A stretch of 53,139 bases of DNA from Chiloscyllium plagiosum (taxonomy: Eukaryota), in the NCBI RefSeq assembly GCF_004010195.1, contig NC_057718.1, positions 1,564,881-1,618,019 on the forward strand, given 5' to 3'. The notes below the pieces were generated by a model. That model was given only the letters and a program-made list of their open reading frames with translations. It made no database searches and was not told the origin of the DNA. Each line of letters begins with the position of its first letter. The first letter of the stretch is position 1. Of the stretch, positions 657 through 51,785 are shown piece after piece. Made by a program: the position numbers and the translations under genes.

Positions 657-942
657 GTTGTGGTTCTGTTCGCCGAGCTAGGAATTTGTGTTGCAGACGT
701 TTCGCCCCCTGTCTAGGTGACATCCTCAGTGCTTGGGAGCCTCCTGTGAAGTGCTTCTGTGATGTTTCCTCCGGCATTTATAAATGCCGGAGGAAAGATC
801 ACAGAAGCACTTCACAGGAGGCTCCCAAGCACTGAGGATGTCACCTAGACAGGGGACGAAACGTCTGCAACACAAATTCCCAGCTTGGCGAACAAAAGCA
901 CAACAACGAGCACCTGAGCTACAAATCTTCGCACAAACGTTG
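657..942 (+). mobile_element. Fold-back Penelope-like element end (family A) with hammerhead motifs, inserted in CR1 3' UTR
   Basis: Inverted arms centred at 780/781 (ccggcattta|taaatgccgg) with a ~37-nt unpaired tail. TSD agcccatctaacct at 643-656 and 943-956. Confidence 0.88.
829..868 (+). ncRNA. Minimal type I hammerhead ribozyme motif (PLE-associated)
   Basis: gca-CTGAGGA-t-gtcacct(agac)aggggac-GAAA-c-GTC-tgc. A mirror copy lies on the minus strand at ~693-732. Confidence 0.75.
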
Positions 943-3900
943 AGCCCATCTAACCTACACTATTCCATTCTCATCCATATGTGTATCCAATGACCATTTA
1001 AATGCCCTTAAAGTTGGCGAGTCTACTACTGTTGCAGGCAATGCATTCCATACCCCTATTACTCTCTGAGTAAAGAAACTACCTCTGACAGCTGTACAAT
1101 ATCTATCACCCCTCAATTTAAAGCTACATCCTCTCACGCTAGCCATTGCTATCTGAGGAAAAGGGCTCTCACTGTCTACCCTATGTAACTGTCAGGTTAT
1201 CTTGTATGTATCAATGAAGTCACCTCTCAATCTTCTTCTCTCTAACAAAAACAGCCTCACGTCCCTCAGCCTTTCCTCATAAGACTTTCCCTCCATACCA
1301 GGCAACATCCTCGTAAATCTCCTCTGAACCCTTTCCAAAGCTTCCACATCCTTCTATAATGCAGCGACCAGAACTGTATGCATCAATCCAAGTTGCGGCC
1401 TCACTAGAGTTTTGTACAGCTGCAGCTACAGATGATTTCATGGTTCTGAAACTCAATCTCTCTACCAATAAAAGCTGACACACCATATGCCTTCTTAACA
1501 ACTCTATCAAGCTAGGTGGCAACTTTCAAAGTTCAATGGACCTAGACACCAAGAGCCCTCTGCTCATCTACATGACCAAGAACCTTACCACTAGCCCAAA
1601 ACTCTGTATTCCTGTTACTCCTTCCAAAGTGAATGACCTCACACTTTTTTGCATTAAACTCCATTTACCACCTCTCAGCCCAGCTCTGCAGCTTGTCTAT
1701 GTCCCTCTGTAACCTACAATATTCTTCTGCACTATGCACAACTCTACCGACCTTAATGTCATCCACAAATTTACTAACCCATCCTTCTGCGCCCTCATCC
1801 AGGTCATTTATAAAAATGACAAACAGCAGTGGATCCAAAACAGATCTTTGTGGTACACCACGAGTAAATGACCTCCAGAATGAATATTTCCCTTCAACCA
1901 CCATCCTTTGTCTTCTTTCAGCTAGCCAATTTCTGATCCAAACCCCAAAATCACCCTCAATCCTATGCCTCTGTATTTTATGCAATAGCCTACCGTGGTG
2001 AGCCTTATCAAACACCTTACTGAAATCCATATACACCACTTCAACTGCTTTCCCCTCATCCATCTGTTTGGTCATGTTCTCAAAGAACTCAATAAAATTT
2101 TTGAGACACAACCTACCCTTCACGTTGACTATGCTTAATCAACTTATTCCTTTCCAGATGATTATAAATCCTATCTCTTTCACCCTTTCTGACACTTCAC
2201 CCACAACCAAAGTAAGGCTCACTGGTCTATAATTACCAAGGTTGTCTCTACTCCCCTTCTTGAACAAGAGAACAACATTTGCTAATCTCCAGCCTTCTGG
2301 CACTATACCTGTCAACAATGATGACATAAAGATCAAAGCCAAAGGCTCAGTAACCTCTTCCCTGACTTTCCAACGAATCCTAGGATAAACCCCATCTGGC
2401 CCAGGGGACTTATCTATTTTTAGACTTTCCAGAATTGCTAACACCTCCTCCTTGTGAGCCTCAATCCCATCTAGTCTAGTAGCTTGTATTTCAGTATTCT
2501 CCTCAACAACATTATTTTTTTCTCATGTGAAAACTGATGAAAAGTATTCGTTAAGCACTTCCCCTATCTCCTCTGACTCCATGTACAACTTCCCACTACC
2601 ATCCTTGATTGGTGCTAATCTTACCCTCATCATTCTTTTATTCCTGATAAACCGATAGAAAACCTTAGGGCTTTTGTTGATCCCATCTGCCAATGACTTC
2701 TCAAGTCCCCTCCTGGCTCTTCTTAACTCTCGTTAGGTCTTTCCTGGCTAATTTGTAACTCTCAAGCGCCCTAACTGAGCCACCACATCTCATCGTAACG
2801 TAAGCCTTCTTCCTCTTGACAAGAGATTGAACTTCCTTAGTAAAGCACGGCTCCCACGCTCAACAACTTCCTCCTTGCCTGACCGGTACATACTTAGCGA
2901 GGATTTGCAGTAGCTGTTCTTTGAATAAGCTCCGCATTTCAATTGTGCCCATCCCCTGCAGTTTGTTTCCCCATCCTAAGCATCCTACATCCTGCCAATT
3001 TGCGTCATAATTGCCTTTCCCCCAGCTATAAGTCTTGCCCTGTGGTATATACCTATCCCTTTCCATCGCTAAAGTAAACATAACCAAATTGTTGTCACTA
3101 TCACCAAAGTGCTCACTTACCTCCAAATCTAACACCTGGCCAGGTTCATTACCCAGTATCAAATCCAATGTGGCCTTGCCCCTTGTTGGCCTTTCTACAT
3201 ACTGTCAAGAAACCATGCTACACAAATTGGACAAAAACCGATCCATCTAAAGTACTCAAACTATAGTATTCCCAGTCAATATTTGAAAAGTTAAAGCCCC
3301 CCATGACAACTACCCTGTTACTCTCACTCCTATCGAGGATCAACTTTGCTATCCTATCCTCGACATCTCTGGAACTATTTGGAGGCCTATAGAAAACTCC
3401 CAACAGGGTGACCTCTCCTTTCCTGTTTCTAACCTTAGTCCTTACTACCTCAATAGACATGTCCTCAAAAGTCCTTTCTGCAACTGTATTACCGTCCTTG
3501 ACTAACAATGGCACACCTCCCCCTCTTTTACTATCTTCTCTGTTCTTATTGAAACATCTAAACCCCAAAACCTGCAATAACCATTCCTGTCCCTGCTCTA
3601 TCCATGTCTCTGAAATGGCCACAACATCGAAATCCCAGGTACCAACCCATGCTGCAAGTTCACCCACCTTATTCTGGATGCTCCTGGCATTGAAATAGAC
3701 ACACTTCAAACCAATTTCTTGCTTGCCGGTACCTTCTTGCGCCCGTGAAACCTTATTTCTGACCTCTTTACTCTCAAACTCCCATATACTTAAACTACAA
3801 TTCAGGTTCCCATCCTCCTGCTGAATTAGTTTAAACCCACCTGAGGAGAATTAGCAGATTTCCTCCTCAAGATATTGGTGAAGCAGACTTGATGTCATTC

Positions 3901-3964
3901 TCCTGCCTTTTCTTTTGGCCTTATAGTCTAAGGTAGAGTCCCCAGCTAATTGTTTTTTACTAAC

Positions 3965-4285
3965 TGATGAATTTGGGCATTACTGACTGGGCTTGCATTT
4001 ATTTATCATTCCTAATTTCCCACACGGCAATTCAAACTCAACCACATGACTGTACGTCTGAGCTCTCATGTAAATCTGACCAGGAAAGGCTGGCAGATTT
4101 CTTATAATGAACACTTGTGAACCAGATGACTTTTTAACAAGGATTGATCATCATTATCTGGTTGTCATTCGGCTAGCTTCATTCATTCCAGATTTTCATT
4201 GAATTCAAAATTCATCATCTGTATGGTCAGATTTAAGCTCAATTCCCTTGAACCATTAGCCTCGGGCTTTTGATTTCTAGTGAAG
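3965..4285 (-). mobile_element. Old SINE-like repeat (same family as 50880-51240)
   Basis: Its reverse complement resembles 50880-51240 (…catctggttcac…gaaatctgc…). Degenerate. Confidence 0.5.
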
Positions 4286-4289
4286 TGCC

Positions 4290-10404: not shown

Positions 10405-10543
10405 ATTTAGATTAGAGTAGTCATGGAAAAGCACAGCAGGTCAGGCAGCATCTGAGGAGCAGGACAATCCACGTTTCGGGCAAAAGCCCTTCATCAGGAA
10501 TGAAGGCAGGGAGCCTCCGGGGTGGAGAGATAAATGGGAGGGG
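10405..10543 (-). mobile_element. PLE 3' end (family C), non-fold-back
   Basis: TSD ggcagggcagg at 10394-10404 and 10544-10554. Minus-strand CTGATGA-a-gggc(tttt)gccc-GAAA-c-GTG has a mutated cleavage triplet. Confidence 0.8.
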
Positions 10544-10805
10544 GGCAGGGCAGGTGACTGAAATAAAAATGGGGGAACACTGTGGGTCTAGTGATCATAA
10601 TTCTATTAATTTTAAACTGGTTGGGGAAAAGGATAAGCCTTTCATAAATCTTAAAGTTTTTAATTGGATTAAGGCAAATTTTAATGGTGTGAGACAAGAA
10701 CTTTCAAAAGTTGATTGAAATAGACTGTTCACAGGTAAAAGAATACCTGACAAGTGGGAGGAGTTCAAGAGCTTGATGACGAGAGTTCAGAGGTATTTGT
10801 TTCTG

Positions 10806-11447
10806 CTGTGGTTCTGTTCGCCGAGCTGGAAGTTTTTGTTGCAAAAGTTTCGTCCCCTGGCTAGGCAACATCATCAGTGCTTGGGAGCCTCCTGCGAAGC
10901 GCTTCTTTGATGTTTCCTCTGGTGTTTATAGTGGTCTGTCCCTGCCGCTTCCGGTTGTCAGTTTCAGCTGTCCGCTGTAGTGGTTGGTATATTGGGTCCA
11001 AGTCGATGTGTTTGTTGATGGAGTTTGTGGATGAATGCCATGCCTCTAGGAATTCCCTGGCTGTTCTCTGTCTGGCTTACCCTGTGATAGTAGTGTTGTC
11101 CCAGTCGACTGGGACAACACTACTATCATAGGGCAAGCCAGACAGAGAACAGCCAGGGAATTCCTAGAGGCGTGGCATTCAGCCACAAACTCCATCAACA
11201 AACACATCGACCTGGACCCAATATACCAACCACTACAGCGGACAGCTGAAACTGACAACCGGAAGCGGCAGGGACAGACCACTATAAACACCGGAGGAAA
11301 CATCAAAGAAGCACTTCGCAGGAGGCTCCCAAGCACTGATGATGTTGCCTAGCCAGGGGACGAAACGTTTGCAACAAAAACTTCCAGCTCGGCGAGCAGA
11401 ACCACAGCAACGAGCACCCGAGCTACAAATCTTCGCACAAACTTTGA
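10806..11447 (+). mobile_element. Fold-back PLE (family A) with ~300 bp arms, including the GIY-YIG C-terminus
   Basis: Centre at 11106/11107 (cccagtc|gactggg). The right arm encodes DWDNTTIIGQARQRTAREFLEAWHS…INKHIDLDPIYQPL. It has a 38-nt tail and TSD gtatttgtttctg at 10793-10805 and 11448-11460. Confidence 0.92.
11333..11372 (+). ncRNA. Minimal hammerhead motif (GUU triplet)
   Basis: gca-CTGATGA-t-gttgcct(agcc)aggggac-GAAA-c-GTT-tgc. Confidence 0.65.
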
Positions 11448-12968
11448 GTATTTGTTTCTGTTAGAGTGAAGGGTAAGGCTGGTGAAGGAACAATGGATGA
11501 ATAATGATATTGAGGTTCTAGTCAAGAATAAAAGAGAATCTTACTTTAGATATAGACAATATGGTTCAATTGAACCTCTTAATCAATATAAAAAGTGTAG
11601 GGCCATTCTTAAGAAAGAAATCCAGAAGGCAAAGAGGGATATGCGATAGCATTTGCAGAAAAGGTTAAGGATAATCCAAAGAGATTCGACAAATACATTC
11701 AAAGCAAAAGAGTAACTGGAGACAGGGAAGGACCTTTTAAAGATCAAGGAGGTCATCTTTGTGTTGAACCCCAGGAGATGGGAGAGATAATAAATGAATA
11801 TTTCACATCAGTTTTTACTGTGGAGAAAGAAATTGAGTCTGCAGAATACAGAGAAATAAACTTTAATGTTTTAAAAACAGTTCACATTACAGAAGATGTC
11901 TTAGACAATATAAAGGTGGATAAATCTCCACTACCTGATCTGATCTATCCCAGATTGTCGTGGGAAGTAAGGGAGGAAATTACGAGACCTCTTACAAAAA
12001 TGTTTGCATCATCTATAACCACAGGTGAAGTGCCTGATGACTGGCGGGTGACTAACGTTGTACCTTTGTTTAAGAAAGGTTTTAAGGATAAACCAGGAAA
12101 CTCTTGACCTGTGAGTCTGACTTCGGTGGGTAAATTGTTGGAGGTGATTATAAAAGATAGGATGCGTGGACATTTAGAGATGGAAAAATTGATTAGGGAT
12201 AGTCAGCATGGTTTTGTGTGAGGAAAATCATGTCTCACAAACTTGATTGAGCTTTTTTGCAGAAGTTACCAAAAAGGTTGATGATAGCAGAGCAGTAGAT
12301 ATTATTTGGACCTCAATAAAATATTTGACAAGATTCCACGTGGTAGACTACTTAGTAAAGTTACACTACATTGGGTTCAGGGTGAGCTTGCCAATTGGAT
12401 ACATAATTGGCTTCACAGCAGGAGACAGAGCGTAATGGTGGAGGGTTGCTTTTCAGACTGGAGACCTGTGACCAGTGGTATTCCACAGGGATTGGTTCTG
12501 GATCCTTTTTTGTTTGTCATTTATATAAATCATTTGGATGAGAATACAGAAGGCATGGTTAGTAAATTTGTGGATTACACCAAAATTGGTGGCATAGTAG
12601 AGAGTGAAGGAGATTTCTAAGTTTACAAAGGAATCTTAATCAAATGGGTCAATGGGCTGAAAAATGACAGAGGGAGTTCAATCTGGATAACTGCAAGGTA
12701 TTGCATTTTGGCACAACAAACAAGGGTAGAGCTTATACAATGAATGGTAGAACAGAGGGACCTAAGGGTACAGGTATATAATTCTTTAAAATTTGTGTCA
12801 CATATAGACAGAATGGTTCAGAAGGCATCTGGCATGATTGCCTTCACTGATCAGTCCTTGGAGTACAGGAGTTGGAACATTATGTTGAGATTGTACAGGA
12901 CATTGGTGAGGCCCCTTCTAGAATACTGTGTCCAGTTCTGGTTGCCTAGTTACAGGAAGGATATTATC

Positions 12969-13896
12969 ATGAGCAGATGAACAGACAGATCTCAGTGTCC
13001 AGGTGCATAAATCCCTGCAAGTTGCCACCCAGGTTGAGAGAGTTGCTAAGAAGGCTTACGATGTGTGGTGTTTATTGTTAAAAATCACACAACACCAGGT
13101 TATAGTCCAACAGGTTTAATTGGAAGCACACTAGCTTTTGGAGCGACGCTCCTTCATCAGGTGATTGATGAAGGAGCATCGCTCCGAAAGCTAGTGTGCT
13201 TCCAATTAAACCTGTTGGACTATAACCTGGTGTTGTGTGATTTTTAACTTTGTACACCCCAATCCAACACCGGCATCTCCGAATCATGATTGGTGTTTAT
13301 TGGTAGGGGGATTGAGTTTCAGAGCCACAAGGTCATGCTTCAGCTGTACAAGGCACTGGTAAGGCCACATTTGGAGTATGGCGTACAGTTCTGGTCACCG
13401 CATTATAGGAAGGATGTGGAAGCTTTGGAAAGGGTTCAGAGGAGATTTACTAGGATGTTGTCGGGTATGGAAGAAAGGTCTTACGAGGAAAAGCTGAGGG
13501 AACTAAGGCTGTTTTTGTTGGAGAGTAGAAGGTTGAGAGGTAACTTAATCGAGATGTATAAGATAATCAGAGGGTTAGATAGGATGGACAGTGAGAACCT
13601 TTTTCCTTGGATGGTGAAGGCTAACATGAGGGGACATTGCTTTAAATTGAGGGGTGATAGATTTAGGACAGATATCAGGGGAAATTTCTTTACTCAGAGA
13701 GTAGTAGGGGTGTGGAACGGCCTGCCTGCAACAGCAGTAGATTCGCCAACATTAAGAGCATTTAAATGGGCATTGGACATACATATGGATAATAATGGAA
13801 TGGTGTAGGTTAGATGGGCATCAGATTATGTTCACAGGTCAGCGTAACCTCGAGGGCTGAGGGCCTGTACTGCGCTGTAATGTTCTATGATCTATG
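12969..13896 (+). mobile_element. Nested 5'-truncated CR1 3' end (same subfamily as 581-1560 and 26000-30097)
   Basis: ORF LYKALVRPHLEYGVQFWSPHYRKDVEALERVQRRF…WNGLP plus a 3' tail. It splits the host at RKDII|KLHR. Confidence 0.88.
13078..13290 (+). mobile_element. Fold-back PLE end (family B)
   Basis: Arms at ~13077-13159 and 13166-13248 with a ~42-nt tail. TSD tggtgtttattg at 13066-13077 and 13291-13302. Degenerate hammerheads (TGATGA-a-ggagc..gctcc-GAAA-g-CTA) sit at the hairpin apex. Confidence 0.9.
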
Positions 13897-22117: not shown

Positions 22118-24025
22118 AAAGAACAAAGAACAAAGAAAATTTACAGCTCAGGAACAGGCCCTTCGGCTCTCCAAGCCTGAGCCAATCCAAATCTACTGTC
22201 TAAACCTGTCGCCCAATTCCTAAGCATCTGTATCCCTCTGCTCCCCACCTTCTCATCTGTCCAGACCCATCTTAAATGAATCTACCGTGCCTGTCTCTAC
22301 AACCTCTGTTGGCAACGTGATCCAAACACCCACCACCCTCTGTGTGAAGTACTTGCCGCATGTATCCCCCTTAAACTTTCCACCTCTCACCTTGAAAGCG
22401 TGACCTCTTGTTATTGAATCCTTTACCCTGGGAAAAAGCATGTCTCTATCCACACTTTCTATCCCCTTTATGATTTTGTAAACCTCAATCAGGTCCCCCC
22501 TCAATCTCCTTTTTTCTAATGAAAACAAACCTAACCTACTCAACCTCTCTTCATAGCTAGCACCTTCCATACCAGGCAACATTCTCATAAACCTTCTCTG
22601 CACCCTCTCCAAAGCGTCCACATCCTTTTGGTAATGTGGCGACCAGAACTGTACACAGTATTCTAAATGCAGCCAAACCAATGTCTTGCACAATTTTAAC
22701 ATGACCTGCCAGCTCTTATACTCAATATTGAACTCCATCTGCCACTTTTCCGCCTAACTCTCCAGTCTATCTATATCCTCCTGTATTCTCTGACAGTCCC
22801 TGCTTTCTGCTACTCCACCAATCTTCGTGTCATCTGCAAACTTGCTGATCATACCAACAGTGCCCTCTTCCAGATCATTCATGTATATCACAAACAACAG
22901 TGACCCCAACACTGACCCCTGCGGAACACCACTGGTCACCTTTCTCCATTTCGAGAAACTCCCTTCAACTACTACTCTCTGTCTCCTGTTGCTCAACCAG
23001 TTCTTTATGCACCTAGTCAGAATACCCTGCACACCATATGACTTCACTTTCTCCATTAGTCTACCACGGGGAACCTTATCGAACACCTTACTACAGTCCA
23101 TGTATATGACATCAACGGCCCTTTCTTCATCTATCAACTTGGTCACTTCCTCAAAGAACTCTATTAACTTTAGAAGGCACGATCTCCTCCGCACAAAACC
23201 ATGTTGCCTATCACTGATAAGCCCATTCTTTTCTAAATATAAATAGATCCTATCCCTCAGTACCTTCTCCAGCAACCTTCCCACCACTGACGTCAGGCTC
23301 TCTGGTCTGTAGTTACCCGGAATATCCCTACTACCCTTCTTGTACAGGGGGACAAGATGAGCAACCCTCCAGTCCTCCGGCACCTCACTTGTGTTTAAGG
23401 ATGCCACAAAGATATCTGTCAGGGCCCCAGCTATTTCCTCTCTCGCCTCCCTCAGCACTCTGGGATAGATCCCATCCAGTCCTGGGGATTTGTCCACCTT
23501 AATAACCTCTTGTCTACCCAACACATCTTCCCTTCTTATGTCAACATGATCCAGACTAATCAAACTTCTATCTCTAATCTCAAGATTCATCATACAATGA
23601 AAGCAAATTACTGCAGATGCTGGAATCTAAAACCAAAAGACCAAAATGCTGGAAGATCTCAGCAGGTCTGGCAGCATCTGTAAGGAGAGAAAAGAGCTGA
23701 CCCTTTGACAAAGGGTCAGTTAGACTCGAAACATCAGCTCTTTTCTCTCCTTACAGATGCTGCCAGACCTGCTGAGATTTTCCAGCATTTTCTCATTTGG
23801 TTCAAGATTCCATCATGTTCCTCTCCTCAGTGAACACTGAGGCAAAGTAATCATTCAGAATCTCACCCATTCTCTCAGGTTCAACACACAGCCTTCCTTC
23901 ATTATCCTTTAGTGGACCAATCCTTTCTCTAGTTACCCGCTTGCTTCTTATATAAGAATAAAGTGCTTTGGGATTCTCCTTAATTCTGCTCGCTAACGCT
24001 ATTTCATGACCTCTTTTAGCCCATG
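22118..24025 (-). mobile_element. CR1 LINE RT/3' end, 5' truncated, internal deletion near 22730
   Basis: 279-aa RT ORF with GVPQGSVLG…FADD. The 3' end appears as (aaagaac)n repeats on the + strand. Confidence 0.92.
23594..23801 (-). mobile_element. Fold-back PLE end (family D)
   Basis: Arms aaccaaa…aagagctga / tcagctctt…tttggtt with a ~37-nt tail on the left. TSD tcaagattc(c)atcat at 23580-23593 and 23802-23816. Degenerate hammerhead tgacaaa-gggtc(agtta)gactc-GAAA-c-ATC. Confidence 0.85.
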
Positions 24026-25799: not shown

Positions 25800-25997
25800 G
25801 AAGAGTGTGGTGCTGGAAAAGCATAGCCAATCAGGCAGCGTCCAAGGCACAGGAAAATCAGCTTCATTCCTGATGAAGGGCTTATGCCCAAAACATCGAC
25901 TCTCCTGCTCCTCAGATGCTGCCTGACTGGCTGTGCTTTTTCAGCACCACACTCTTCAACTCTGATCTCCAGAATCTGCAGTCCTCACTTTCTCCTA
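25800..25997 (+). mobile_element. Fold-back PLE end (family C)
   Basis: Arms gaagagtgtggtgctg… / …cagcaccacactcttc with a ~39-nt tail. Hammerhead CTGATGA-a-gggc(ttat)gccc has GAAA mutated to AAAA. No clear TSD. Confidence 0.8.
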
Positions 25998-25999
25998 AT

Positions 26000-31145: not shown

Positions 31146-32137
31146 GTGTGTTTTGAGAAGATTTGTAGCTCACTTTGAGGCTTTGGATGTTCATTTGCTT
31201 GCTGAGCTGGAAGGTTCATTTCCAGACGTATCATCACCCTACTAGTGGGCCTCAGGTGAAGTACTGCTGAAAATTTCTGCTTTCTGTTAATATGTTTGGT
31301 TTCTTTGGGTTGGTGATGTCATTTCCTTTGGTGATGTTAGTTCCTGTGGTGAAGTCGCTTCCTGTTCTTTTTCTCAGGAGGTGGTAGATGGGGGTCTAAC
31401 TCGATGTGTTTATTGATAGAGTTTTGGTTAGAATGCTATGCCTCTAGGAATTCTCGTGCGTGTCTCTGTTTGGCTTGTCCTAGGGTGGATGTGTTGTCCC
31501 AGTCAAAGTGGTGTCCTTCCTCATCCATATGTGAGGATACTAGTGAGAGAGGGTCATGTCTTTTTGTGGATAGTTGATGTTCATGTATCCTGGTGGCTAG
31601 TTTTCTGCCTGTTTTCCAATGTACTGTTTGTTACAGTTCTTGCACAGTATTTTGTAAACGATGTTAGTTTTGCTCATTGTCTGTATAGGGTCTTTCAAGT
31701 TCATTAGCTGCTGTTTTAGTGTGTTGGCAGGTTTGTGGGCTACCATGATGCCAAGGGGTCTGAGTAGTCTGGCAGTCATTTCTGAGAAGTCTTTGATGTA
31801 GGGGAGAGTGGCTAGGGTTTCTGGATGTGTTCTGTCTGCTTGTTTGGGTTTGTTGCTGAGAAATCTGTGGACTGTGTGTTCATTGGGTACCCATTTTTTT
31901 TGAATACACTGTGTAGGTGATTTTCCTCTACTCTGTGTAGTTCCTCTGTGCTGCAATGTGTGGTGGCTCGTTGAAACATATAAATAGGAAGCAGAAATTT
32001 TCAACATTGCTTCGCCTGAGGCCCACTGAAGATGTTACCTAGCATGGTGATGAAACGTCTGGAAATGAACCTTCCAGCTCAGTGAGCAAGCCTACATCCA
32101 GAATCTCAACCTGAGGTATAAATCTTCTCAAAACTCT
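31146..32137 (-). mobile_element. Penelope-like element 3' part (GIY-YIG) bounded by inverted pLTR ends
   Basis: Minus ORF TLPYIKDFSEMTARLLRPLGIMVAHKP…KDP…NIVYKILCKNCNKQYIG (GIY-YIG). Inverted ends ttttgagaagattt… / …aaatcttctcaaaa. Confidence 0.9.
32023..32062 (+). ncRNA. Intact minimal hammerhead ribozyme motif, sense to host pre-mRNA
   Basis: cca-CTGAAGA-t-gttacc(tagcat)ggtgat-GAAA-c-GTC-tgg has all core nucleotides, a fully paired helix II (with G-U pairs) and helix I cca/tgg. Confidence 0.78.
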
Positions 32138-32927
32138 TTAGCATTTTTCATAAGACAATCCCTCCATACCAGGGATCATCCTAGTGAACCTTCTGTGAAC
32201 TACCTCCAATAAGATGATATCTTTCCTTAAATAATGGAACCAAAAATGCTCTTGGTGCTCCAGATGTGGTCTCACCAGTTGCAATAAGCATTCCCTACTT
32301 TTATACTCAAACTGTCTTGAAATAAGTACCAACTTTCCATTAGCCTTCCTGATAACTTGTTATCCATGTGTGCTCGCTTTCTGTGTTTCATACATAAATA
32401 CGCCCAAGCCCCTCTGTGTTGCTGTTTCCTGCAGTTTTTCTCCATTTGAATAATATTCTGATCTTTTGCTCTCCCACCTAAATTGAGCAGCTTTGCATTT
32501 TCCCACATTATACGCCATTGACAATTTTTTGCCCACTGATGTAACTGATTAATATCTCTCTGTAAACTCTTTGTATTCCTCTCACAGTTTACCTTCCCAT
32601 CTATTTTTGTGTTTTCTACAAATTTGGCTGCAATACTTTCATTTCCTTCCAGTACTAACTCCAGTTTCCCTGTAGGTCTTGCTTTGGCCACCTTTCCTGT
32701 TTTGTTTTTATTTACCCGACAGGAACACACAATTATTGTAGTTCAACCATGCACTCTTTGAATGTTTGCCATTACCTTACCACCATCATCCTTTTTAGTA
32801 ACACCCACCCCCTGAATTTGTCATAACCAACTTGCACCTCAGATCATTGTAATGTACTCTATTTAGACTGAGGATCCTAGTCTGGGATTCAGCTAAGTCA
32901 CTTTTCATACTAGTTACGAATGAAAGG

Positions 32928-33378: not shown

Positions 33379-34127
33379 CCAACACTAACTGTGGTTTGAA
33401 AGTCTCCTTAATACATGGAATCAAAAGCACACAAATGCCATTTTATGTGACTCAATAATAGGTAATTCCATACTCAAATAGTAAACTATCTAACTTGTAC
33501 ATAGAATCTACTTTTCTGGAATTTGTCGTCTGCTACACTCGACATTCTGAAACATTGCCACTTGGTGGTGCTGTAAGTAACATTTGATTTGGAGATGCCG
33601 GTGTTGGACTGGGGGGTACAAAGTCAAAAATCACACAACACCAGGTTATAGACCAACAAACCTGTTGGACTATAATCTGGTGCTATGTGATTTTTGACTT
33701 GGTAACATTTGAAATCATGATGTCTCTAAGCAAGCAAATACAAGATTTCATCCCAGGGAACACACCTAGAAATACAAGGTGATGTATATTGGGAGGATGA
33801 GAAAAATGATACCCACACTGAAGGGCAAGTGCAGAAAAACTTCAGGCTCAGAATTAAACACATAAGGGGAAGGAAAAACTGGTGAAATCCTTTGAGGGAG
33901 TGCAGAGTGAGTCATTATGATACGATGAATAAGGTTTTCTCATTATAAAATTGGTGAAGGTTAGTGGTAGATTAAAAAAAGAAACAATTTTAGAACTAGC
34001 AAAATAAGACAAAAAGGGACAAAAGATGAGTATGAGAGAAAGCTAGCTTTAAAGATGGTAAATAGTCCATGTTCCTACAAGTATTTAAATGGGAAAAAGA
34101 GTTATTAAAGCTACTCAAATGGAAACA
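33379..34127 (+). repeat. Local duplication, copy 1 (pairs with 45996-46604)
   Basis: Near-identical to 45996-46604 apart from a 114-bp insertion and small differences. Confidence 0.93.
33588..33701 (-). mobile_element. Minimal fold-back PLE end (family B), hammerhead absent
   Basis: Arms aagtcaaaaatcacac…ccaaca / tgttgg…gatttttgactt with a ~33-nt tail. TSD gtaacatttga at 33577-33587 and 33702-33712. The site is empty in the duplicate copy. Confidence 0.9.
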
Positions 34128-38332: not shown

Positions 38333-38845
38333 AAAGGATTTTGAGAAGATTTGTAGCTTAGGTTGAAGTTCTGGATGTAGGTTTGTCCACTGAGCTGGAA
38401 GGTTCATTTTCAGACGTTTCATCACCAACTAGGTAACATCTTCAGTGAGCCTCTAGACGAAGCACTGCTGGTGTTTCCTGCTTTCTATTTATATGTTTGG
38501 ATTTCTTTGGGTTGGTGATGTCATTTCCTGGTCTTTTTCTTAGAGGGTTGTCAATGGGGTCCAAGTCAATGTGTTTGTTGATAGAGTTCCAGTTGAAATG
38601 CCATGCTTCTCGGAATTCTTGTGTGTGTCTCTGTTTGGGTTTCCCTAGGATGGATGTGTTGTCCCAGTCGAAGTGTGTCCTTCCTTATCTGTATGTAAGG
38701 ATACTAGTGATAAATAGAACATATAAATAGAAAGCAGGAATAATCAGCAGTGCTTTGTCCGGAGGCTCACTGAAGATGTTTCCTAGTATGGTGATGAAAC
38801 GTCTGAAAATGAACCTTCCAACTCAGCGAGCAAACCTACATCCAG
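38333..38845 (-). mobile_element. Fold-back PLE (same family as 31146-32137) nested in an older PLE remnant
   Basis: Inverted arms at ~38371-38497 and ~38718-38845 with a 38-nt tail on the left. TSD agg(t/c)ggtattt at 38322-38332 and 38846-38856. Hammerheads lie on both strands. Confidence 0.9.
38767..38806 (+). ncRNA. Minimal hammerhead motif
   Basis: tca-CTGAAGA-t-gtttcc(tagtat)ggtgat-GAAA-c-GTC-tga, with one helix II mismatch. An intact mirror lies on the minus strand at ~38410-38448. Confidence 0.7.
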
Positions 38846-39029
38846 AGGCGGTATTTCTCCAGTTTACATTCAGCTTCATTGGAACACCTGCAGCTGGCTC
38901 AGCTTGGATTTGTTAGCATGCTAGCAAGATGATTTTCTAAACTCAGCTATTAGATTCTCAGTGTCATCTCCATTTTGATTACATATCCTTCTCAATAATC
39001 AATACGACCAACTTTCCCACTTTCTTTCC

Positions 39030-40052: not shown

Positions 40053-41212
40053 TTGCCCTTCTTTGAGCTAGATCACTGTTACCATCAGAACACCATACTA
40101 TCATGTGACAGCCTATGTCTCTAACTCAGCAATCTTAATTTACCACAATCCATACATTTATATACATTCAATATAATCCTAATTTTATTACTTACCATCT
40201 CGTGCTGAATTTCCAAAAATTCTTTGCCCCTTGATATCTCACTTTTGTATTTTCTTCTGGTTATCATATCTCTTTCAAGTTTGATTGAACACTCTCAAAC
40301 AGCACTAGCAAATTTCCCCACCAAGAATCAGATCTGCATAGGTCCCTTCTCTCTCAGAACTGATATCAAGCTCCTAAGAATCTGATGGCCTTCCTCCTGC
40401 ACCATTTCTTCAAGCAAACATTCATTTACTGTATACTTCTAATTCGATACTCATTTGCATGCATTAACTTTTATGCATTATTTTTAATCCTATATGACCT
40501 TGTTTGAGCTTCTAATTCCATATTCTTTCCACTACAAAGATTATTGCCTCCCTCTAAAATATCTTGTTTTAATTCATCCATCACTGTTGCCCCACCCCAG
40601 CTCTGTGATCTGCAATAGCCCAAAGTTCGCTCAGAACACTGCTCCCCTCTCTCCAGGTACTTACACATGCTCACCGCCAAGGCTCTACCATCAGTGCTCA
40701 TGCTAATCAGGCTGCTTGACCTCCAAGCTCTGGAGTTTCCTCGTTCTCCTGACCTACTGTATCTCTCTTCTAACTCTCTCTGTCCTCCTTCAAGATCCTC
40801 TTTACATCTACATTTTTGATAAGCTTTTGATCCCCAATAGCATACATCCTGGCTCAAGAAAGTGTAGGACTGGGTATTAAATATGTTTGGAGACAAGGTT
40901 TTCAGGAAAGAGAGGAAAGACCTAGGGTGGCTTGAATTCAAAACTCTTTTGAAATGTTTGGAATTTTTTATCACCCTAAAATGCAATATGAGTGCTAGTT
41001 CTAATGGTGCACACTGCTTTCTATAAAAGTGTAATTTTATTCGCATTTAATATTATTTGATTTCAAACCAGTCAAGGATCAGGAGGTCCTTTTGACTGGT
41101 TTCTGGAAATGGAATGTATCCCATGCACGGAGTGCAGACTCTGCAACTAAGAGGCCTGGACTGCGGTGCCCAGTCACATGATTAGGTTAGTAGCTGTCAC
41201 TTATCACTCAAC

Positions 41213-41436
41213 TGCTGGAAATGTGTTGCTGGAAAAGCGCAGCAGGTCAGGCAGCATCCAGGGAACAGGAGAATCGACGTTTCAGGCATAAGCACTTCTT
41301 CAGGATTCCTGAAGAAGGACTTATGCCCGAAACGTCGATTCTCCTGTTCCCTGGATGCTGCCTGACCTGCTGCGCTTTTCCAGCAACACATTTCCAGCTC
41401 TGATCTCCAGCATCTGCAGACCTCACTTTCTCCTCA
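41213..41436 (+). mobile_element. Fold-back PLE end (family C)
   Basis: ~92-bp near-perfect arms centred on 41306 with a 38-nt tail. TSD acttatcactcaac at 41199-41212 and 41437-41450. Hammerhead tc-CTGAAGA-a-ggac(ttat)gccc-GAAA-c-GTC-ga at ~41307-41338. Confidence 0.92.
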
Positions 41437-41975
41437 ACTTATCACTCAACCACAGACAGTCCCTCTCTTCAAAAAAACATCATTAATGTTTACTGCTTGA
41501 CCTGCAAAATGTGCTGTCAAGGTGAAGGGTGGGTGATGAGAAGAGAATTGTGGGGTGCAATTGTGAACTAACAGAGAGTGCAGGATAAGACCCACGAAGA
41601 GGTGGAGCACTATTGAGAGTGATGGAGGAGGGCAGGGACAAAGAAGATTGAGAAAATGTTATGGAACAAGTTGGGGAAGCACACATACTCTCCTGGCACC
41701 CTGGCAACTATTTTGTTTTTAAATGTGCTCAACAAAGGATGGTGTCTCTCTTTTAAATCTTTTGTTGTCAGCCTTGACTGCTTTTTCAATTGTTGTAAAC
41801 ATCATCTTCTGCTGTTCAGCTCCTGGTCATTGTCTGCTCAAATCTTGGAGGTGTGTCAGTTTGTGTGAGACTTCAGCCATCCTGCTTTGTGTCTGGAAGA
41901 AAGGAAAAGTGAGTTCCCATATCTCTATCTGATTCTCACCTAAAGATAATTTGCACTTGTTTCATTTTTGAACAG

Positions 41976-46776: not shown

Positions 46777-47177
46777 TTCACCAGTTTCCTCATTTCTCCT
46801 CCCCCCACCTTTCCCCAGTTCCAACCTTCCAGCTCAGCACTGTCCTCATGACCTGTCCTACCTTCCTATCTCCCTTCCCACCGATCCTCTCCACCCTCCC
46901 CTCTGACCTATCACCTCCATCCCCACCCCCAATCACCCATTGTACTCTTTGCTACCTTCCCCCAACCCCCCTCTCTGACCTATCACCTCCATCCCCACCT
47001 CCATTCATCTATTGTACTCTTATGCTACTTTCTCCCCACCCCATCCCCCTCTCATTTATCTCTCCACCTTGGAGGCTGCCTGCCTCTATTCCTGATGAAG
47101 GGCTTTTGATTTTCCTGCTCCTCGGATGCTGCCTGACCTGCTGTGCTTTTCCAGCACCACTCTGTTCTAAACCCTGA
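46777..47177 (+). mobile_element. PLE 3' end (family C), C-rich pLTR
   Basis: TSD ctctacccat at 46767-46776 and 47178-47187. The hammerhead is partly deleted (cctgatgaagggcttttg|attttcc). Confidence 0.82.
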
Positions 47178-47189
47178 CTCTACCCATCC

Positions 47190-47747
47190 CCCTGCAGAAA
47201 GCTTCAACATTGATCTTGAGTTTATATCACGCTACATGAAACCCCACCACACGGTTCTGTACTGTCATTACTGTCCTGTTTTAACACCATCACCTTGATA
47301 ACTTGTTGTGGCCTCTCTACCCTAATTAGTTTGAATTTGTTTCTTTAATAGACCCTCAGAATGTGACTTTATACCTATCATGTTATTCCTGTCACTTAGT
47401 TTGTCTCCAGCATCACAGTTTTAAAAATGTTTTCTAATTATCTGTCTGCCTCAATTAATTGGATTATAGGTAATCTCTTCAATTCCTATTCAACTAGTGA
47501 CACTTTACTCACACTCTAACATTCTGGTCACCTGCAGAGACTTACTATTCAACACTCCACTCACACCATTGTATGATTTTTTAAATCTCTCTGCCTATAT
47601 ATCCTGTGTCTGAATGCTTTTCTTTACTTCATCTGATGAAGGAGCAGCGCTCTGAAAGCTTGTAGTTTCAAATAAATCTGTTGGGCTAGAACCTGGTGTC
47701 GTGTGACTTCAGATCTTGTCCATCCCAGTCCAACACCAGCACCTAAT
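47190..47747 (+). mobile_element. PLE 3' end (family B) with hammerhead motif
   Basis: CTGATGA-a-ggagc(agc)gctct-GAAA-g-CTT at 47633-47661, with family B tail …cccagtccaacaccagcacct. Confidence 0.75.
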
Positions 47748-47956: not shown

Positions 47957-48667
47957 TGTTGGAGAATTGAGCCTAATTGAACAGAGATCACACAAGCCAG
48001 ATTGGGTAAAATTGACAAGCTGTTTATTGTAAACGATATCGCTGGAAGAGAAATTGATTAGGCTGACACAGAACTGACAGTGTGTACGGGTAGGTCAAGG
48101 ATTCTCCTCCCTGAGCTGAGAAACCAGATTTTATAGGAATACAGTACAATGATGCTAATTAAAAATAGTGAAAATACTATGGTCAAGTAACCCAGTTACC
48201 ATGGTGATAATCACAATGCAGTTATCAGAAGAATATCCTAAATGTAGATACAATGAGACATCCGGCAGCAACAACAGTTCTTAATGGGATCAGGAAATTC
48301 CAGCTCCCTTCGAGGGGAAGTGAGAAGGTCCCTCCCTTTTCTTGGCAGTAAGATGAGTGAGGTATTTTGGTGTCTCTCCGTCTGATCTGAGCTTTGTGTG
48401 GCTTTGGTATCACTGGAGTACGAGACTGCCCTTAAGGCTTTGGGAGAGCTGTGTTTATTGGGTCCAGGAAGCTTATTGCCAGTTTGTCTTGGGACGTGTA
48501 TTCCCTGGTCTGCGAGTGACTATGGTCATGTCTGGTTTCCCTTATCAGCCTGTTTGGTCAGTGCTGAGACATTCTGGGTGTTTCTTGTATGGTTTGGACA
48601 GGCTTGGTTTCTGTGTTCTGTGTAGCCGTGCTGAGGGTAGGCAGAGGGCAGATGATCTTATCCCACA
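47957..48667 (-). mobile_element. LTR-like element (~711 bp), possibly retroviral
   Basis: The minus strand begins TGTGGGATAA and ends TTCTCCAACA. TATA (cctataaaa) at 48129-48137 precedes AATAAA at 48023-48028 in U3-R-U5 order. No TSD found. Confidence 0.5.
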
Positions 48668-48689
48668 ATAATGTTGTTTTTCTTTTCTT

Positions 48690-50060: not shown

Positions 50061-50157
50061 TGAATTTGAGGTAACAGTCATGGGGTCATTTATTGACTGA
50101 CTGGTGCCATTTGGATCACACAGAATCAAGGACTAGTGTGTAAATATCTGAGGACTT

Positions 50158-50700
50158 GCGTGTGTGTGCACGTGTGTGTGTACGTATGTATGTGGGTATG
50201 TGTGTGAGCACATGTGTGTACATGTGTGTGCATACCAGTGTGTGTGTGTACTGGTATGTATGTGTACATGTGTGTATGTGTGTGTGTATGTGTATGTACG
50301 TGTGTGTATGTACGTGTGTGTGTACTTGTTTGTGTACTTGTGTGTTTGTGTGTACATGTGTACCTGTGTGCGTGTGTGTGTATGTGTGTACCTGTGTGCG
50401 AGTGCGCGCGTGTGTGTGGGTGTACATGTGTGTGTGTGTGTGTCTGTGTGTGGATNNNNNNNNNNNNNNNNNNNNNNNNNNNNNNNNNNNNNNNNNNNNN
50501 NNNNNNNNNNNNNNNNNNNNNNNNNNNNNNNNNNNNNNNNNNNNNNNNNNNNNNNNNNNNNNNNNNNNNNNNNNNNNNNNNNNNNNNNNNNNNNNNNNNN
50601 NNNNNNNNNNNNNNNNNNNNNNNNNNNNNNNNNNTGTGTGTGTGTGTGTGTGTATGTGTGTGTGTATACGTGTGTGTGTGTGTGTGTGTACCTGTGTGTA
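50158..50700. repeat. Compound (TG)n microsatellite containing an assembly gap (N, 50456-50634)
   Basis: TG/TA/CG-interrupted dinucleotide run with 179 Ns. Confidence 0.97.
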
Positions 50701-50729
50701 CTGTAACTAATGATCTGTTCGTTTTCCAG

Positions 50730-50841
50730 TATTATTTTCGCAGATATCAAAGGTTTTACCAACCTGTCCATGGGCCTTTCACCACAGCAGTTAGTCCTCC
50801 TGCTAAATGAACTCTTTGCACAGTGTGACGATCTGGCTGAG
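50730..50841 (+). CDS. ADCY8: Adenylate cyclase type 8-like, exon C (112 bp, phase 2/0; start of C1a catalytic domain)
   Basis: Branch-point-like taactaat at ~50704-50711, acceptor gttttccAG and donor gag|GTtagt. Translates (S)[37 protein letters not shown], the class III cyclase SILFADxxGFT…LNELFxxFD motif. Phase matches exon B. Confidence 0.93.
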
Positions 50842-50879
50842 GTTAGTTGAATTCCATTCTGCACATTTGCACTTGTGTC

Positions 50880-51240
50880 GTCACTGATTTCATCCAGAGA
50901 CCCAAGGTAATGCTTTGGGAACAATCCCAGAATGGTAGACGATGAGATTTAAATTTGGTTAATAAAAAGGTCTGGAATTCAGAGCTAGTTTCTATAATGC
51001 TGATCTTAGAACTATCTTTGATTATTGTTATAACTCATCTGGTTCACTATTAATGAAGGAAATCTGCTATTTTGCCTTGTCTGACCAATAGGTGACTCAA
51101 GTCCCCCAGCAATATGGTTGTCTTTGAACTGCCTCTGAAGTAGCTGAGTAAACTACTCAGTTCAGGGGCAGTTAGAGATGGACAACAAATGCTGGCCAGT
51201 CATAGCCAGAAACACCCATATTCCACAAAATAATAATAAG
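50880..51240 (+). mobile_element. Old SINE-like repeat with LINE-type tail
   Basis: Tail aaatgctggcc…cccatattccacaaaataataa resembles the end of the 39-40 kb LINE. The body resembles 3965-4285 inverted. Confidence 0.5.
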
Positions 51241-51341
51241 ATACATGACCAGCTGGGAGGATTGTTGCCTGTGCCAGTGGGAGTGTGTCGCAGAGAATAG
51301 TGGCTCCTGGGAAAGCAGGAAAGTTACACCCATTCCTTGTG

Positions 51342-51785
51342 GTTAAAAATCACACAACACCAAGTTATAGTCCAACAGGTTTATTTGGAGGTACAAGCTT
51401 TCAGAGCATTGCTCCTTCATCAGGTGGAGGAGGATCATAGGGCACAGAATTTATAGCAAAAGATCACAGTGTCTTACACTGTTGTGATAAGTTGAAAAAA
51501 CCTAGATTGCTTTCATCTTTTAGAATGGGTTGCAGGTTTCCATGCATTAATATGTAAATCCCAGAACTTCTTTCAAGTCATATTCCCAAGATAACTTAAG
51601 GTTTTACAAAAAAAAATCTGCATTGCAGAATTATGTTTGCAGATATATTCTATTTTGTTCAAAGAGCATGCAATCTGTAGGCTGTCAACATTTTTAATAA
51701 TCCATATATTCCTACTTTCCGAATTCCTACTTTGGAAATAGAACCAGTCTGACCCAAGGTTGGGATACAGGCGGACTGTAACCTA
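51342..51785 (-). mobile_element. PLE 3' end (family B)
   Basis: gttaaaaatcacacaacacc…, with minus-strand cac-CTGATGA-a-ggagc(aat)gctct-GAAA-g-CTT at ~51390-51425. Confidence 0.78.

What the first reader, a model, noticed from the sequence alone, without database searches (positions are those of the whole stretch)
657..51425. A family of hammerhead-ribozyme-bearing fold-back mini-insertions scattered through the ADCY8-like introns
Seen: at least nine fold-back inserts (657, 10806, 13078, 23594, 25800, 31146, 33588, 38333, 41213) and several single-arm PLE ends, from at least four sequence families. Most show a CUGANGA-hairpin-GAAA-N-NUH motif with a palindromic helix III (GAAACGUC, GAAAGCUA/U), intact or visibly decayed. 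Established: Penelope-like elements carry minimal type I hammerheads in their pseudo-LTRs, and these cleave best as dimers. Inference: these ~110-1000 bp hairpins are a recurrent product of PLE mobilisation in this genome, possibly propagating as non-autonomous, retrozyme-like units. They seed ribozyme cores and long dsRNA stems in a host pre-mRNA.
Basis: partly seen in the sequence, partly recalled or inferred. Interest (0 to 1): 0.72.

Follow-up and report, generated by a model that had tools for sequence, protein, structure and literature searches.

The report
Head-to-head Penelope retroelement end copies
The hairpin-shaped inserts are real: each is two inverted copies of the hammerhead-bearing tail end of a Penelope-like jumping gene laid down in a single insertion, a layout already described for these elements, here in thousands of copies.

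Summary
All nine fold-backs sit at the stated coordinates. A strict minimal-hammerhead descriptor hits the window 10 times, against 0.01 expected.

They are insertion products of Penelope-like elements (PLEs). Each is a head-to-head pair of the element's 3' module, running from the hammerhead to the reverse-transcription start. Each pair has its own target-site duplication. A 36-40 nt "tail" lies on one arm only: 38 of 40 in a position-ordered sample, and all 60 fetched copies plus 3 window copies in similarity-selected sets.

Exact-anchor counts in the 3.56-Gb genome are 4343 (family A), 431 (D) and 32 (B-short) loci.

Apex junctions fall within about 10-15 nt in each family but differ from copy to copy. 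The commonest type is 28-30% and many are singletons. The two arms of a copy share sub-family variants and even rare variants, so both arms come from one template.

The fold-back is therefore most likely re-made at each insertion. Unit copying of hairpins is not shown. Nothing is retrozyme-like: there are no direct tandems.

Rfam hammerhead models find nothing, as expected for loop-less helix III. Cleavage is untested, and a fold-back transcript would bury the motif in a stem of about 90 bp.

The ADCY8 label is unverified. Earlier notes of this scan on other windows of this genome reached the same "known kind" verdict.

The parts
657..942 (.). Fold-back, family B (short form). Left arm about 657-780, right arm 781-905, tail 906-942 on the right arm only. 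Target-site duplication AGCCCATCTAACCT at 643-656 and 943-956. Minimal hammerhead motifs start at 832(+) and 729(-).
10806..11447 (.). Fold-back, family B (long form). 303-nt arms meet at 11106/11107 inside the endonuclease-coding remnant. Tail about 11410-11447 on the right arm. Duplication GTATTTGTTTCTG at 10793-10805 and 11448-11460. Motifs at 11336(+) and 10877(-); the latter has lost the palindromic helix III word.
13078..13290 (.). Fold-back, family D. Arms about 13078-13159 and 13166-13248, tail on the right arm. Duplication TGGTGTTTATTG on both sides. Apex CATCAGGTGATTGATG gives CCUGAUGA on one strand and AUUGAUGA on the other.
23594..23799 (.). Fold-back, family E. Tail on the left arm. 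The left arm carries an 18-nt deletion between two TCAG repeats, and the right arm lacks the CUGANGA box. A duplication of about 15 nt (TCAAGATTC(C)ATCAT) was read by eye.
25800..25996 (.). Fold-back, older family A. The left arm (25806-25859) starts exactly at the predicted hammerhead cut site. The right arm (25868-25996) is full, with tail. The core is decayed (GAAA to AAAA, GUC to AUC).
31146..32175 (.). Fold-back, family C. The long inverted left arm (about 31150-31970) holds the PLE endonuclease-like ORF remnant (31612-31812, minus strand). The right arm is short (31974-32134+). Tail-like sequence lies on both sides. Motif at 32026(+). No clear duplication found.
33588..33701 (.). Fold-back, family D, with short arms (about 42-47 nt). 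Its apex is 3' of the hammerhead, so it carries no motif. Tail on the left. Duplication GTAACATTTGA at 33577-33587 and 33702-33712.
38333..38846 (.). Fold-back, family C. Left arm about 38333-38670 with tail, right arm 38718-38846 without. Motifs at 38445(-) and 38770(+). Duplication GG(T/C)GGTATTT.
41213..41436 (.). Fold-back, young family A. Arms 41214-41305 and 41307-41398, tail 41399-41436 on the right arm. Duplication ACTTATCACTCAAC at 41199-41212 and 41437-41450. Motifs at 41309(+) and 41303(-).
10424..10499 (-). Single family A arm that continues upstream into a longer linear element. The motif is decayed (H17 = G).
47108..47160 (+). Single family A arm in a longer linear element, with an internal deletion that removes the 3' half of the hammerhead.
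47634..47741 (+). Single family D-like arm with a complete motif (GAAAGCUU).
51342..51423 (-). Single family D-like arm with a complete motif (GAAAGCUU).

Best explanation
Each fold-back is one retrotransposition event of a Penelope-like element, or of a short non-autonomous derivative that consists only of the PLE 3' module. That module runs: minimal hammerhead, about 60-90 nt, inner reverse-transcription start, tail of about 38 nt, outer start.

Shown:
- The insert is flanked by a duplication of about 7-14 bp.
- Its two arms are inverted copies of the same module, joined 5' end to 5' end.
- Exactly one arm carries the tail.
- The two arms carry the same sub-family and rare variants, so both were copied from one template.
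- The inner ends fall in a narrow zone specific to each family.

Inferred:
- Both cut target strands prime cDNA synthesis on the same short RNA or RNP. One starts at the inner site and the other at the outer site. Alternatively, the first cDNA is copied back on itself.
- The two cDNA 3' ends are joined with little or no homology, which gives the small apex differences.
- The fold-back is thus re-made at each insertion. What multiplies is the arm module, mobilised in trans by autonomous PLEs that encode RT plus a GIY-YIG endonuclease.

The hammerhead motifs are passengers of that module. In a fold-back transcript the motif would be locked in a stem of about 90 bp.
For: One insertion each.
- Duplications flank 7 of the 9 window fold-backs (23594 read by eye).
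- A duplication of 7 nt or more was found in 31 of 40 position-ordered genomic family A fold-backs.
- Duplications are also visible in the copies I inspected by eye in the alignments (not tallied for all 60).

Tail on one arm.
- 38 of 40 in the position-ordered sample: 21 left, 17 right, 1 both, 1 none.
- All fetched copies plus the window copy in each similarity-selected set, 21 of 21 for A, B and D.
- The tail-less arm ends at arm positions 90-97 in 30 of 40.
- The literature I read matches this. [quoted passage not shown] The tail is the stretch between two RT start sites, the PLE protein cleaves and extends both strands, and a template from +20 to +172 suffices (PMC11167929, passages).

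One template for both arms.
- Among those 40 copies (35 with 60 or more comparable positions), 6 rare variants (present in 4 arms or fewer) sit on both arms of the same copy, in 5 copies. 54 rare variants sit on one arm only.
- Four alleles seen exactly twice are both times in one copy.
- Common sub-family variants were scored on both arms 46 times and on one arm 41 times; many of the latter are at CpG sites.

PLE identity.
- The minus-strand ORF in the long arm at 31597-32034 aligns at 52% over 67 aa to residues 553-619 of P0003. That stretch runs into P0003's GIY-YIG match at 603-637.
- P0001 and P0003, found with a genomic relative of that ORF, carry RVT_1 followed by GIY-YIG.
- The ORF has 40,346 first-look candidates in the genome, of which 150 were scored.

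Motif. It fits the published min-HHR features (PMC4209133, text read).

Abundance and apex zone.
- 4343, 431 and 32 loci match exact-anchor apex patterns, against controls of 1, 0 and 0.
- In a sample of 20 arms chosen by an arm-internal 37-mer, 9 continue at least 125 nt upstream as a linear element. The other 11 all end within about 3 nt of one position.
Against: - The cause of the sharp inner-end zone is unknown. No transcription start or processing site was demonstrated.
- Raw reads from one single-cell poly(A) RNA run showed no pile-up of starts or ends on the family A element. 143 reads ran on upstream into the long linear element.
- Two-strand priming and copy-back synthesis cannot be told apart from these data.
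- Pfam found no domain in the window's own PLE ORF remnants or in the PLE part of L106. The RT + GIY-YIG assignment therefore rests on homologues, and P0003's GIY-YIG score (22.2) lies just under the cut-off of 22.6.
- 41 common-variant states sit on one arm only, and one copy (L121) has arms of different sub-families and a tail on both.
- The apex-pattern counts only see fold-backs whose apex lies inside the chosen zone, so the share of fold-backs with other apexes is known only from small samples.
- For families A, D and E no coding parent was fetched. Their PLE assignment rests on the motif, tail and layout.
Confidence: 0.75

Rival explanations
1. The fold-backs multiply as units. A read-through hairpin RNA (both arms plus tail) is reverse-transcribed from the tail through the apex, so new copies inherit the apex. 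The tip of the palindrome is then remodelled by small central deletions or template slips.
For: - Some apex types recur: CAGGAWTCCTG in 14 of the first 50 family A loci, CATCAGGTGATG in 15 of the first 50 family D loci, and the window's family D apex in 4 of those 50 and in 16 of 20 similarity-selected copies.
- A single tail per copy follows automatically from this model.
- The free 3' tail of the folded RNA would be accessible for priming.
- Many shorter apexes could be central deletions of a longer one.
Against: - Rare variants sit on both arms of single copies. Unit copying cannot create these, because a new mutation in a master would stay on one arm.
- Some apexes hold more parental sequence than others of the same sub-family.
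- Monomers with the same 5' end exist.
- Recurrence of an apex type is also expected if 5' ends cluster at a few positions.
- The T/G arm asymmetry that looked like unit inheritance (20 of 21) disappears in the position-ordered list: 0 of the first 50 loci. About that many such copies are expected from random mutation in a family this large; this is my estimate, not a computed test.
Confidence: 0.15
2. They are DNA-transposon-type miniature inverted-repeat or fold-back elements that only resemble PLE ends.
For: Terminal inverted repeats with a flanking duplication and high copy number.
Against: - The whole element is the inverted repeat, and the arms equal the 3' end of a retroelement whose longer copies run into an RT/GIY-YIG-type ORF.
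- There is an asymmetric 36-40 nt tail on one arm.
- Duplication length varies from about 7 to 14 nt.
- Monomers and 5'-truncated forms of the same arm exist.
Confidence: 0.02
3. The palindromes are assembly artefacts or arose by DNA rearrangement after insertion of single copies.
For: - Short-read contigs of an independent run did not span the whole 41150-41500 stretch.
- The PLE literature warns that such structures trouble assemblies (PMC8557442, passage).
Against: - The duplication flanks the complete fold-back rather than one arm, at 31 of 40 loci and in the window.
- The same architecture occurs at thousands of loci on many contigs.
- The unique flanks on both sides are covered by the independent run's contigs.
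Confidence: 0.03

Closest known systems
Insertion units of endonuclease-bearing Penelope-like elements (Penelope/Poseidon, Neptune, Naiad), with an inverted 5'-truncated copy next to the element and a 30-40 bp tail at one end (PMC8557442, PMC3846280, PMC11167929; passages read)
   Same: Head-to-head inverted arrangement, a one-sided tail of 36-40 nt, flanking duplications, heavy 5' truncation, a hammerhead near the 3' module, and palindromic or near-palindromic inverted junctions.
   Different: Here most units are only about 180-290 bp. They have no ORF and no direct pseudo-LTR. The inner ends cluster within about 10-15 nt per family, and one family has at least 4343 such dimers. In families B and C the ORF ends inside the hammerhead, whereas in the anole element PAc the ORF starts there.
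Minimal hammerhead ribozymes of metazoan PLEs (Cervera and De la Pena 2014, PMC4209133; main text read apart from the last two parts)
   Same: Core boxes, an extra unpaired base between positions 9 and 10.1, G10.1 pairing, no helix III loop with palindromic 15.2-16.2, a short helix I, and sequence families with differing but paired helix II. That paper also reports pairs of motifs about 100-700 bp apart on opposite strands in Schistosoma.
   Different: Helix II here is 4-6 bp rather than 7-8 bp. Several families have G10.1-U11.1. No cleavage data exist for these sequences.
Animal non-LTR retrozymes (PMC7229834, abstract seen in a search listing; bioRxiv 10.64898/2026.07.22.740005, abstract and passages read)
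   Same: Short non-autonomous hammerhead-bearing repeats linked to PLE pseudo-LTRs.
   Different: Retrozymes are direct tandem repeats that yield circular RNAs. The units here are inverted pairs or monomers. No direct tandem occurs in the window, and no evidence for circles was sought or found.
Twin-priming 5' inversions of LINE-1 (recalled, no paper read; a search for 'Penelope' + 'twin priming' + 'inverted' listed 2 unrelated papers)
   Same: Both target strands serve as primers on one RNA, giving an inverted segment within one duplication-flanked insertion.
   Different: In twin priming the second primer anneals internally, so the two segments are different parts of the RNA. Here both arms cover the same part of the template.

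Membership tests
PLE minimal hammerhead (min-HHR, PMC4209133) | Conserved core: CUGANGA, helix II, GAAA, then UH cleavage site | tested here: met
   12 of 16 arms examined have the whole motif. The strict descriptor gives 10 hits against 0.01 expected.
PLE minimal hammerhead (min-HHR, PMC4209133) | [quoted passage not shown] | tested here: met
   Present in all 12 complete motifs: A or U.
PLE minimal hammerhead (min-HHR, PMC4209133) | G10.1-C11.1 closing pair of helix II | tested here: inconclusive
   G-C in 6 of 12 and G-U in 6 of 12. All family C copies and two family D-like copies have G-U.
PLE minimal hammerhead (min-HHR, PMC4209133) | No helix III loop; palindromic positions 15.1-16.1 (dimer-forming) | tested here: met
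   ACGU or AGCU in 11 of 12 complete motifs; one is decayed to ACUU.
PLE minimal hammerhead (min-HHR, PMC4209133) | Self-cleavage, as dimers | not testable with these tools
   No assay was possible. RNA reads showed no ends at the predicted site, as also reported for PAc (PMC11167929, passage).
Rfam hammerhead families (types I, II, III, HH9, HH10) | Covariance-model score at or above the gathering threshold | tested here: not met
   0 matches at gathering over the whole window. No hammerhead family at E up to 10 over the window or over 81 nt around the best copy.
Endonuclease-bearing Penelope-like element insertion | RT plus GIY-YIG endonuclease ORF in the parent element | tested here: inconclusive
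   The window ORF remnant aligns to the start of the GIY-YIG region of P0003. P0001 and P0003 carry RVT_1 + GIY-YIG. Pfam finds nothing in the window's own remnants. Shown for families B and C only.
Endonuclease-bearing Penelope-like element insertion | Optional 30-40 bp tail at one end of the unit | tested here: met
   38 of 40. All fetched copies plus the window copy in each of three similarity-selected sets, 21 of 21.
Endonuclease-bearing Penelope-like element insertion | Inverted 5'-truncated copy adjacent, within one target-site duplication | tested here: met
Endonuclease-bearing Penelope-like element insertion | Direct partial tandem (pseudo-LTR) | tested here: not met
   No same-orientation adjacent arms among the window's copies. 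These mini-units lack it.
Non-LTR retrozyme | Direct tandem repeats, each with a hammerhead, giving circular RNA | tested here: not met
   No direct tandem in the window. Circular RNA was not tested.
MITE / fold-back DNA transposon | Symmetric termini and a fixed-length duplication typical of a transposase family | tested here: not met
   One-sided tail and variable duplications of about 7-14 nt.

The most novel reading that the evidence does not exclude
The hammerhead-to-tail module (about 130 nt) is a discrete, SINE-like non-autonomous PLE unit, and its normal insertion form is a head-to-head dimer made from a single RNA. The sharply defined inner ends mean that the template RNA really starts at the 5' edge of the hammerhead. 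One possible reason is that in a fold-back each arm supplies the upstream sequence, an antisense pseudo-LTR promoter, that drives transcription of the other arm. Fold-backs would then be self-contained, self-renewing source genes. The population signature would be the first in vivo read-out of the two staggered RT start sites and two-strand priming so far seen only in vitro. That signature is: one tail per dimer, identical arms, and an apex at the RNA 5' end.
Probability: 0.15. Interest if true: 0.6.

Novelty: new member of a known kind. Interest (0 to 1): 0.3.

Why it matters
The inverted and tandem structures of PLE insertions are still called mechanistically undefined in the papers I read (PMC8557442). 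This genome offers thousands of very short, young, duplication-flanked dimers. Three rules can be read directly from them: one tail per dimer, both arms from one template, and a narrow apex zone. These rules constrain integration models to two-strand priming on one RNA at staggered starts, or to copy-back synthesis. They also agree with the minimal template mapped in vitro for the anole element. For genome annotation, the hairpins should be masked as PLE-derived repeats and not called as microRNA precursors; Rfam gives only weak sub-threshold microRNA-hairpin hits on them. As a ribozyme finding it adds no new class.

Tried and rejected
- Rfam at the gathering threshold, at E up to 10 on the whole window, and on 81 nt around the best copy: no hammerhead family. 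Only sub-threshold microRNA-hairpin matches on the fold-backs and on a TG-rich stretch at about 50.2-50.7 kb.
- Arm asymmetry as proof of unit inheritance. In the 20 best genomic matches plus the window copy, 20 of 21 had G on one arm and T on the other at arm position 12. I rejected this after the position-ordered pattern list showed G/G in all of the first 50 of 4343 loci. The T variant also occurs in linear elements and monomers: 9 and 3 of 20 sampled.
- Loop 'flip/flop' of family D relative to the tail (16 against 4 of 20). It is explained just as well by joining one short and one longer arm, so I did not use it.
- 5' ends at the hammerhead cut site. The left arm of the 25800 fold-back starts exactly there, one genomic arm (L100) starts 1 nt after it, and one fragment (L088) ends there. 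Three cases give no statistics. The apparent case at 47108 is an internal deletion.
- Genome search with the outer 100 nt of the family A arm returned nothing, because its words are too common to be indexed.
- A random census of 200 kb could not be fetched. A census of 45.7 kb of non-N sequence gave 2 family A fold-backs and 4 single family A arms, plus 1 family E fold-back and 2 single family E arms. This is too few for proportions.
- Pfam on the PLE ORF remnants of the window and of L106 found no PLE domain. The RVT_1 match in L106 belongs to a LINE piece fused in frame.
- Sequencing-run index: no RNA holder listed.
- Single-cell RNA run X20: 0 reads laid.
- Contigs of runs X1 and X15 cannot show RNA ends, and none spanned the stretch.
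- Host gene: no cyclase domain in the 60 longest ORFs.
- The Lunse, Weinberg and Breaker 2017 paper on dimeric PLE hammerheads is not held. Its title phrase appeared only inside other papers, so what I say of it is recalled.
- Supplementary figures of PMC4209133 and PMC11167929 were not opened. They may hold vertebrate or cartilaginous-fish motif families and junction data that bear on novelty.

Full report
**Observation**

The repeat finder recovers inverted repeats at all nine stated places. The arms run from 42 to 303 nt and are 83-98% complementary. Most have 0-38 nt between the arms. The two family C copies hold several hundred extra bases in one arm.

Reading the sequence and searching the flanks shows that seven of the nine reader coordinates are exact insertion boundaries. 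Target-site duplications of 10-15 nt flank 657-942, 10806-11447, 13078-13290, 23594-23799, 33588-33701, 38333-38846 and 41213-41436. I found no clear duplication for 25800 or 31146.

A BLAST of the window's own arms against the window sorts the copies into five families:
- A: 41213, 25800, and single arms at 10424 and 47108.
- B: 657 and 10806.
- C: 31146 and 38333.
- D: 13078, 33588, and D-like single arms at 47634 and 51342.
- E: 23594.

B and C are related, and A and E share a short stretch.

**The motif**

Of 16 arms examined, 12 carry the complete string YUGANGA, one extra base, a helix II hairpin, GAAA, two bases, then UH. The other four are decayed or truncated.

A stricter descriptor gives 10 hits on the window, against a mean of 0.01 and a maximum of 1 in 100 first-order Markov controls. 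The hits are repeat copies, so this is about four independent families and not ten events.

Helix II differs between families but stays paired: GGGC/GCCC, GUCACC/GGGGAC, GUUACC/GGUGAU and GGAGC/GCUCC. The helix III word is the palindrome ACGU or AGCU in 11 of 12.

These are the traits that Cervera and De la Pena list for PLE minimal hammerheads: the extra base between 9 and 10.1, G10.1 pairing, palindromic 15.2-16.2 and a short helix I (PMC4209133).

Rfam finds no hammerhead at the gathering threshold, at E up to 10, or in an 81-nt search. However, the published class has no helix III hairpin and was itself found with a purpose-built descriptor, so I do not count this against the motif. Catalysis remains untested.

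**What the arms are**

In families B and C the sequence upstream of the hammerhead is an ORF remnant. The minus-strand frame at 31597-32034 has 40,346 first-look candidates in the genome. A relative with a longer open frame (L106) finds eight long proteins. Two that I scanned carry RVT_1 followed by GIY-YIG. The window frame aligns at 52% over 67 residues to the stretch of P0003 that runs into its GIY-YIG match.

Pfam sees nothing in the window's own remnants, so this assignment is indirect. It covers B and C only. For A, D and E the PLE assignment rests on the motif, tail and layout.

**Anatomy across the genome**

The window lies in a 3.56-Gb assembly. Similarity searches with whole fold-backs returned about 40 full-length matches each for the 41213, 657 and 13078 types. 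I fetched 20 copies of each and aligned them.

The copies share three features:
- The copies I inspected by eye sit between their own duplications.
- All have fixed outer ends.
- All carry 36-40 extra bases on one arm only.

This is the PLE "tail": an optional 30-40 bp extension, often at one end only (PMC8557442). It has been shown to be the stretch between two reverse-transcription start sites of a protein that cleaves and extends both target strands (PMC11167929). That paper also maps a sufficient RNA template from about the hammerhead (+20) to +172. This is the same span as the arms here.

**A correction to my first reading**

The top-40 lists are ranked by likeness to the query. That misled me. 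In the family A set, 20 of 21 copies had G on one arm and T on the other at arm position 12, in either orientation relative to the tail. I first took this as proof that an asymmetric hairpin is inherited as a unit.

Exact-pattern counts are not ranked by likeness, and they show otherwise:
- The family A apex pattern matches 4343 loci (control 1), and the first 50 listed are all G/G.
- The T-bearing arm occurs 103 times.
- Of 20 T-bearing arms sampled, 9 run on into a longer linear element, 3 are monomers and 8 are fold-backs of various kinds.

In a family of this size, a few dozen copies sharing one random change with the query are to be expected. That is my estimate, not a computed test. I therefore withdrew the asymmetry argument.

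**Do identical apex junctions recur?**

Partly.
- Family A: 14 of the first 50 loci have CAGGAWTCCTG and 3 have CAGGAATTCCTG. The rest are mostly singletons.
- Family D: 431 loci. Of the first 50, 15 have one apex type, 4 have the window's type and 2 have a perfect palindrome. The rest vary.
- Family B-short: 32 loci, of which 4 have the window's minimal apex.

The inner ends of the arms thus fall within about 10-15 nt in each family but are joined differently from copy to copy. Some apexes hold more parental sequence than others of the same sub-family.

The zone is real and not an effect of the pattern. Among the 20 arms sampled by an arm-internal 37-mer, 9 continue at least 125 nt upstream. 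The other 11 all end within about 3 nt of one position.

**One template for both arms**

I fetched the first 40 family A loci of the position-ordered list.
- The tail is on exactly one arm in 38 (21 left, 17 right), on both in 1 and on neither in 1.
- The tail-less arm ends at positions 90-97 in 30 of 40.
- A duplication of 7 nt or more is found in 31.
- The two arms of a copy nearly always carry the same sub-family variants.
- Six rare variants (present in at most 4 of about 75 arms) sit on both arms of the same copy, in five copies. 54 rare variants sit on one arm only.
- Four alleles seen exactly twice are both times in one copy.

New mutations arise on one arm. A variant on both arms therefore means that both arms were copied from one sequence at insertion.

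**Mechanism**

Shown:
- One event per fold-back.
- Arms joined 5' end to 5' end.
- One tail per fold-back.
- One template for both arms.
- A narrow apex zone in each family.

Inferred:
- The two cut target strands both prime on one short RNA or RNP. One starts at the inner site and the other at the outer site, the latter displacing the former. Alternatively the first cDNA is copied back on itself, as Arkhipova and colleagues suggested from palindromic junctions (PMC3846280).
- The cDNA ends are then joined with 0-2 nt of homology.

I cannot tell these two routes apart. I also cannot say what fixes the RNA's 5' end at the hammerhead's edge.

Raw reads of one single-cell poly(A) RNA run place 1603 reads on the family A element in both directions. 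143 of them run on upstream into the long linear element. There is no pile-up of starts or ends, and none at the predicted cut site. The PAc paper likewise found no reads ending at its cut site.

**The hammerhead in a fold-back**

The 41213 unit with its tail folds into a near-perfect hairpin: -184.7 kcal/mol, z = -24.9. The motif is base-paired to its complement and only the tail is free.

The two motifs of a fold-back lie on opposite strands, so a fold-back does not supply the direct dimer that these ribozymes are thought to need. No direct tandem occurs in the window. "Retrozyme-like" therefore does not fit.

**Context and verdict**

The 60 longest ORFs show only LINE reverse-transcriptase and endonuclease pieces and no cyclase domain. 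The ADCY8 label stays unverified.

Earlier notes of this scan on eight other windows of the same genome describe the same families and reach the same "known kind" verdict. Two of them also say that very abundant short repeats begin with the motif. I tested these points here independently.

The finding is correct as an observation. Its main inference is right that these are products of PLE mobilisation, and right that the arm module multiplies non-autonomously. Its bolder part, self-propagating retrozyme-like hairpins, is not supported.

What is modestly new is the quantitative picture of thousands of minimal head-to-head dimers and the three rules they obey. These rules bear on the still unsettled PLE integration mechanism.

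Noticed in passing
window 1668-2138(-), 3221-3850(-), 12288-12617(+), 17720-19240, 22757-23626(-), 25877-26779(+), 27453-29033(-), 29213-29593(-): Fragments of LINE-type elements (RVT_1 and Exo_endo_phos domains) fill much of the window. The longest open frame is 527 aa at 27453-29033(-).
   Followed up: partly
window about 50178-50709: A TG/CA-rich low-complexity stretch gives several sub-threshold Rfam microRNA-hairpin matches (mir-297, mir-3149). I take these as spurious.
   Followed up: no
L106 301-1386 (-), genome place C7:107150300-107153300: A 361-aa open frame fuses a LINE reverse-transcriptase piece (RVT_1, residues 10-140) in frame with the C-terminal part of a PLE ORF. This is probably a PLE fragment inserted into a LINE.
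   Followed up: partly
L086, L087, L090, L091, L093-L095, L097, L101 (genomic loci): A longer linear element shares the young family A arm. It carries T at helix II position 10.2 (a U-C mismatch) and at least 125 nt of pyrimidine-rich upstream sequence. Its exact 37-mer occurs 103 times, whereas the short G form has thousands of copies.
   Followed up: partly
window 23673-23761, 41259-41352, 33618-33703, 749-814, 11063-11151: The fold-back tips score as weak microRNA-precursor look-alikes in Rfam, all far below the gathering thresholds. Hairpin-based microRNA predictors would probably call them.
   Followed up: no
runs X2-X14: Contigs of runs labelled as four other organisms (B-E) hold 12-21% of the sampled words of the 41100-41550 stretch. 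This suggests that the family A repeat is shared with other species.
   Followed up: no
window (whole): The window holds 179 N. Their position was not examined.
   Followed up: no
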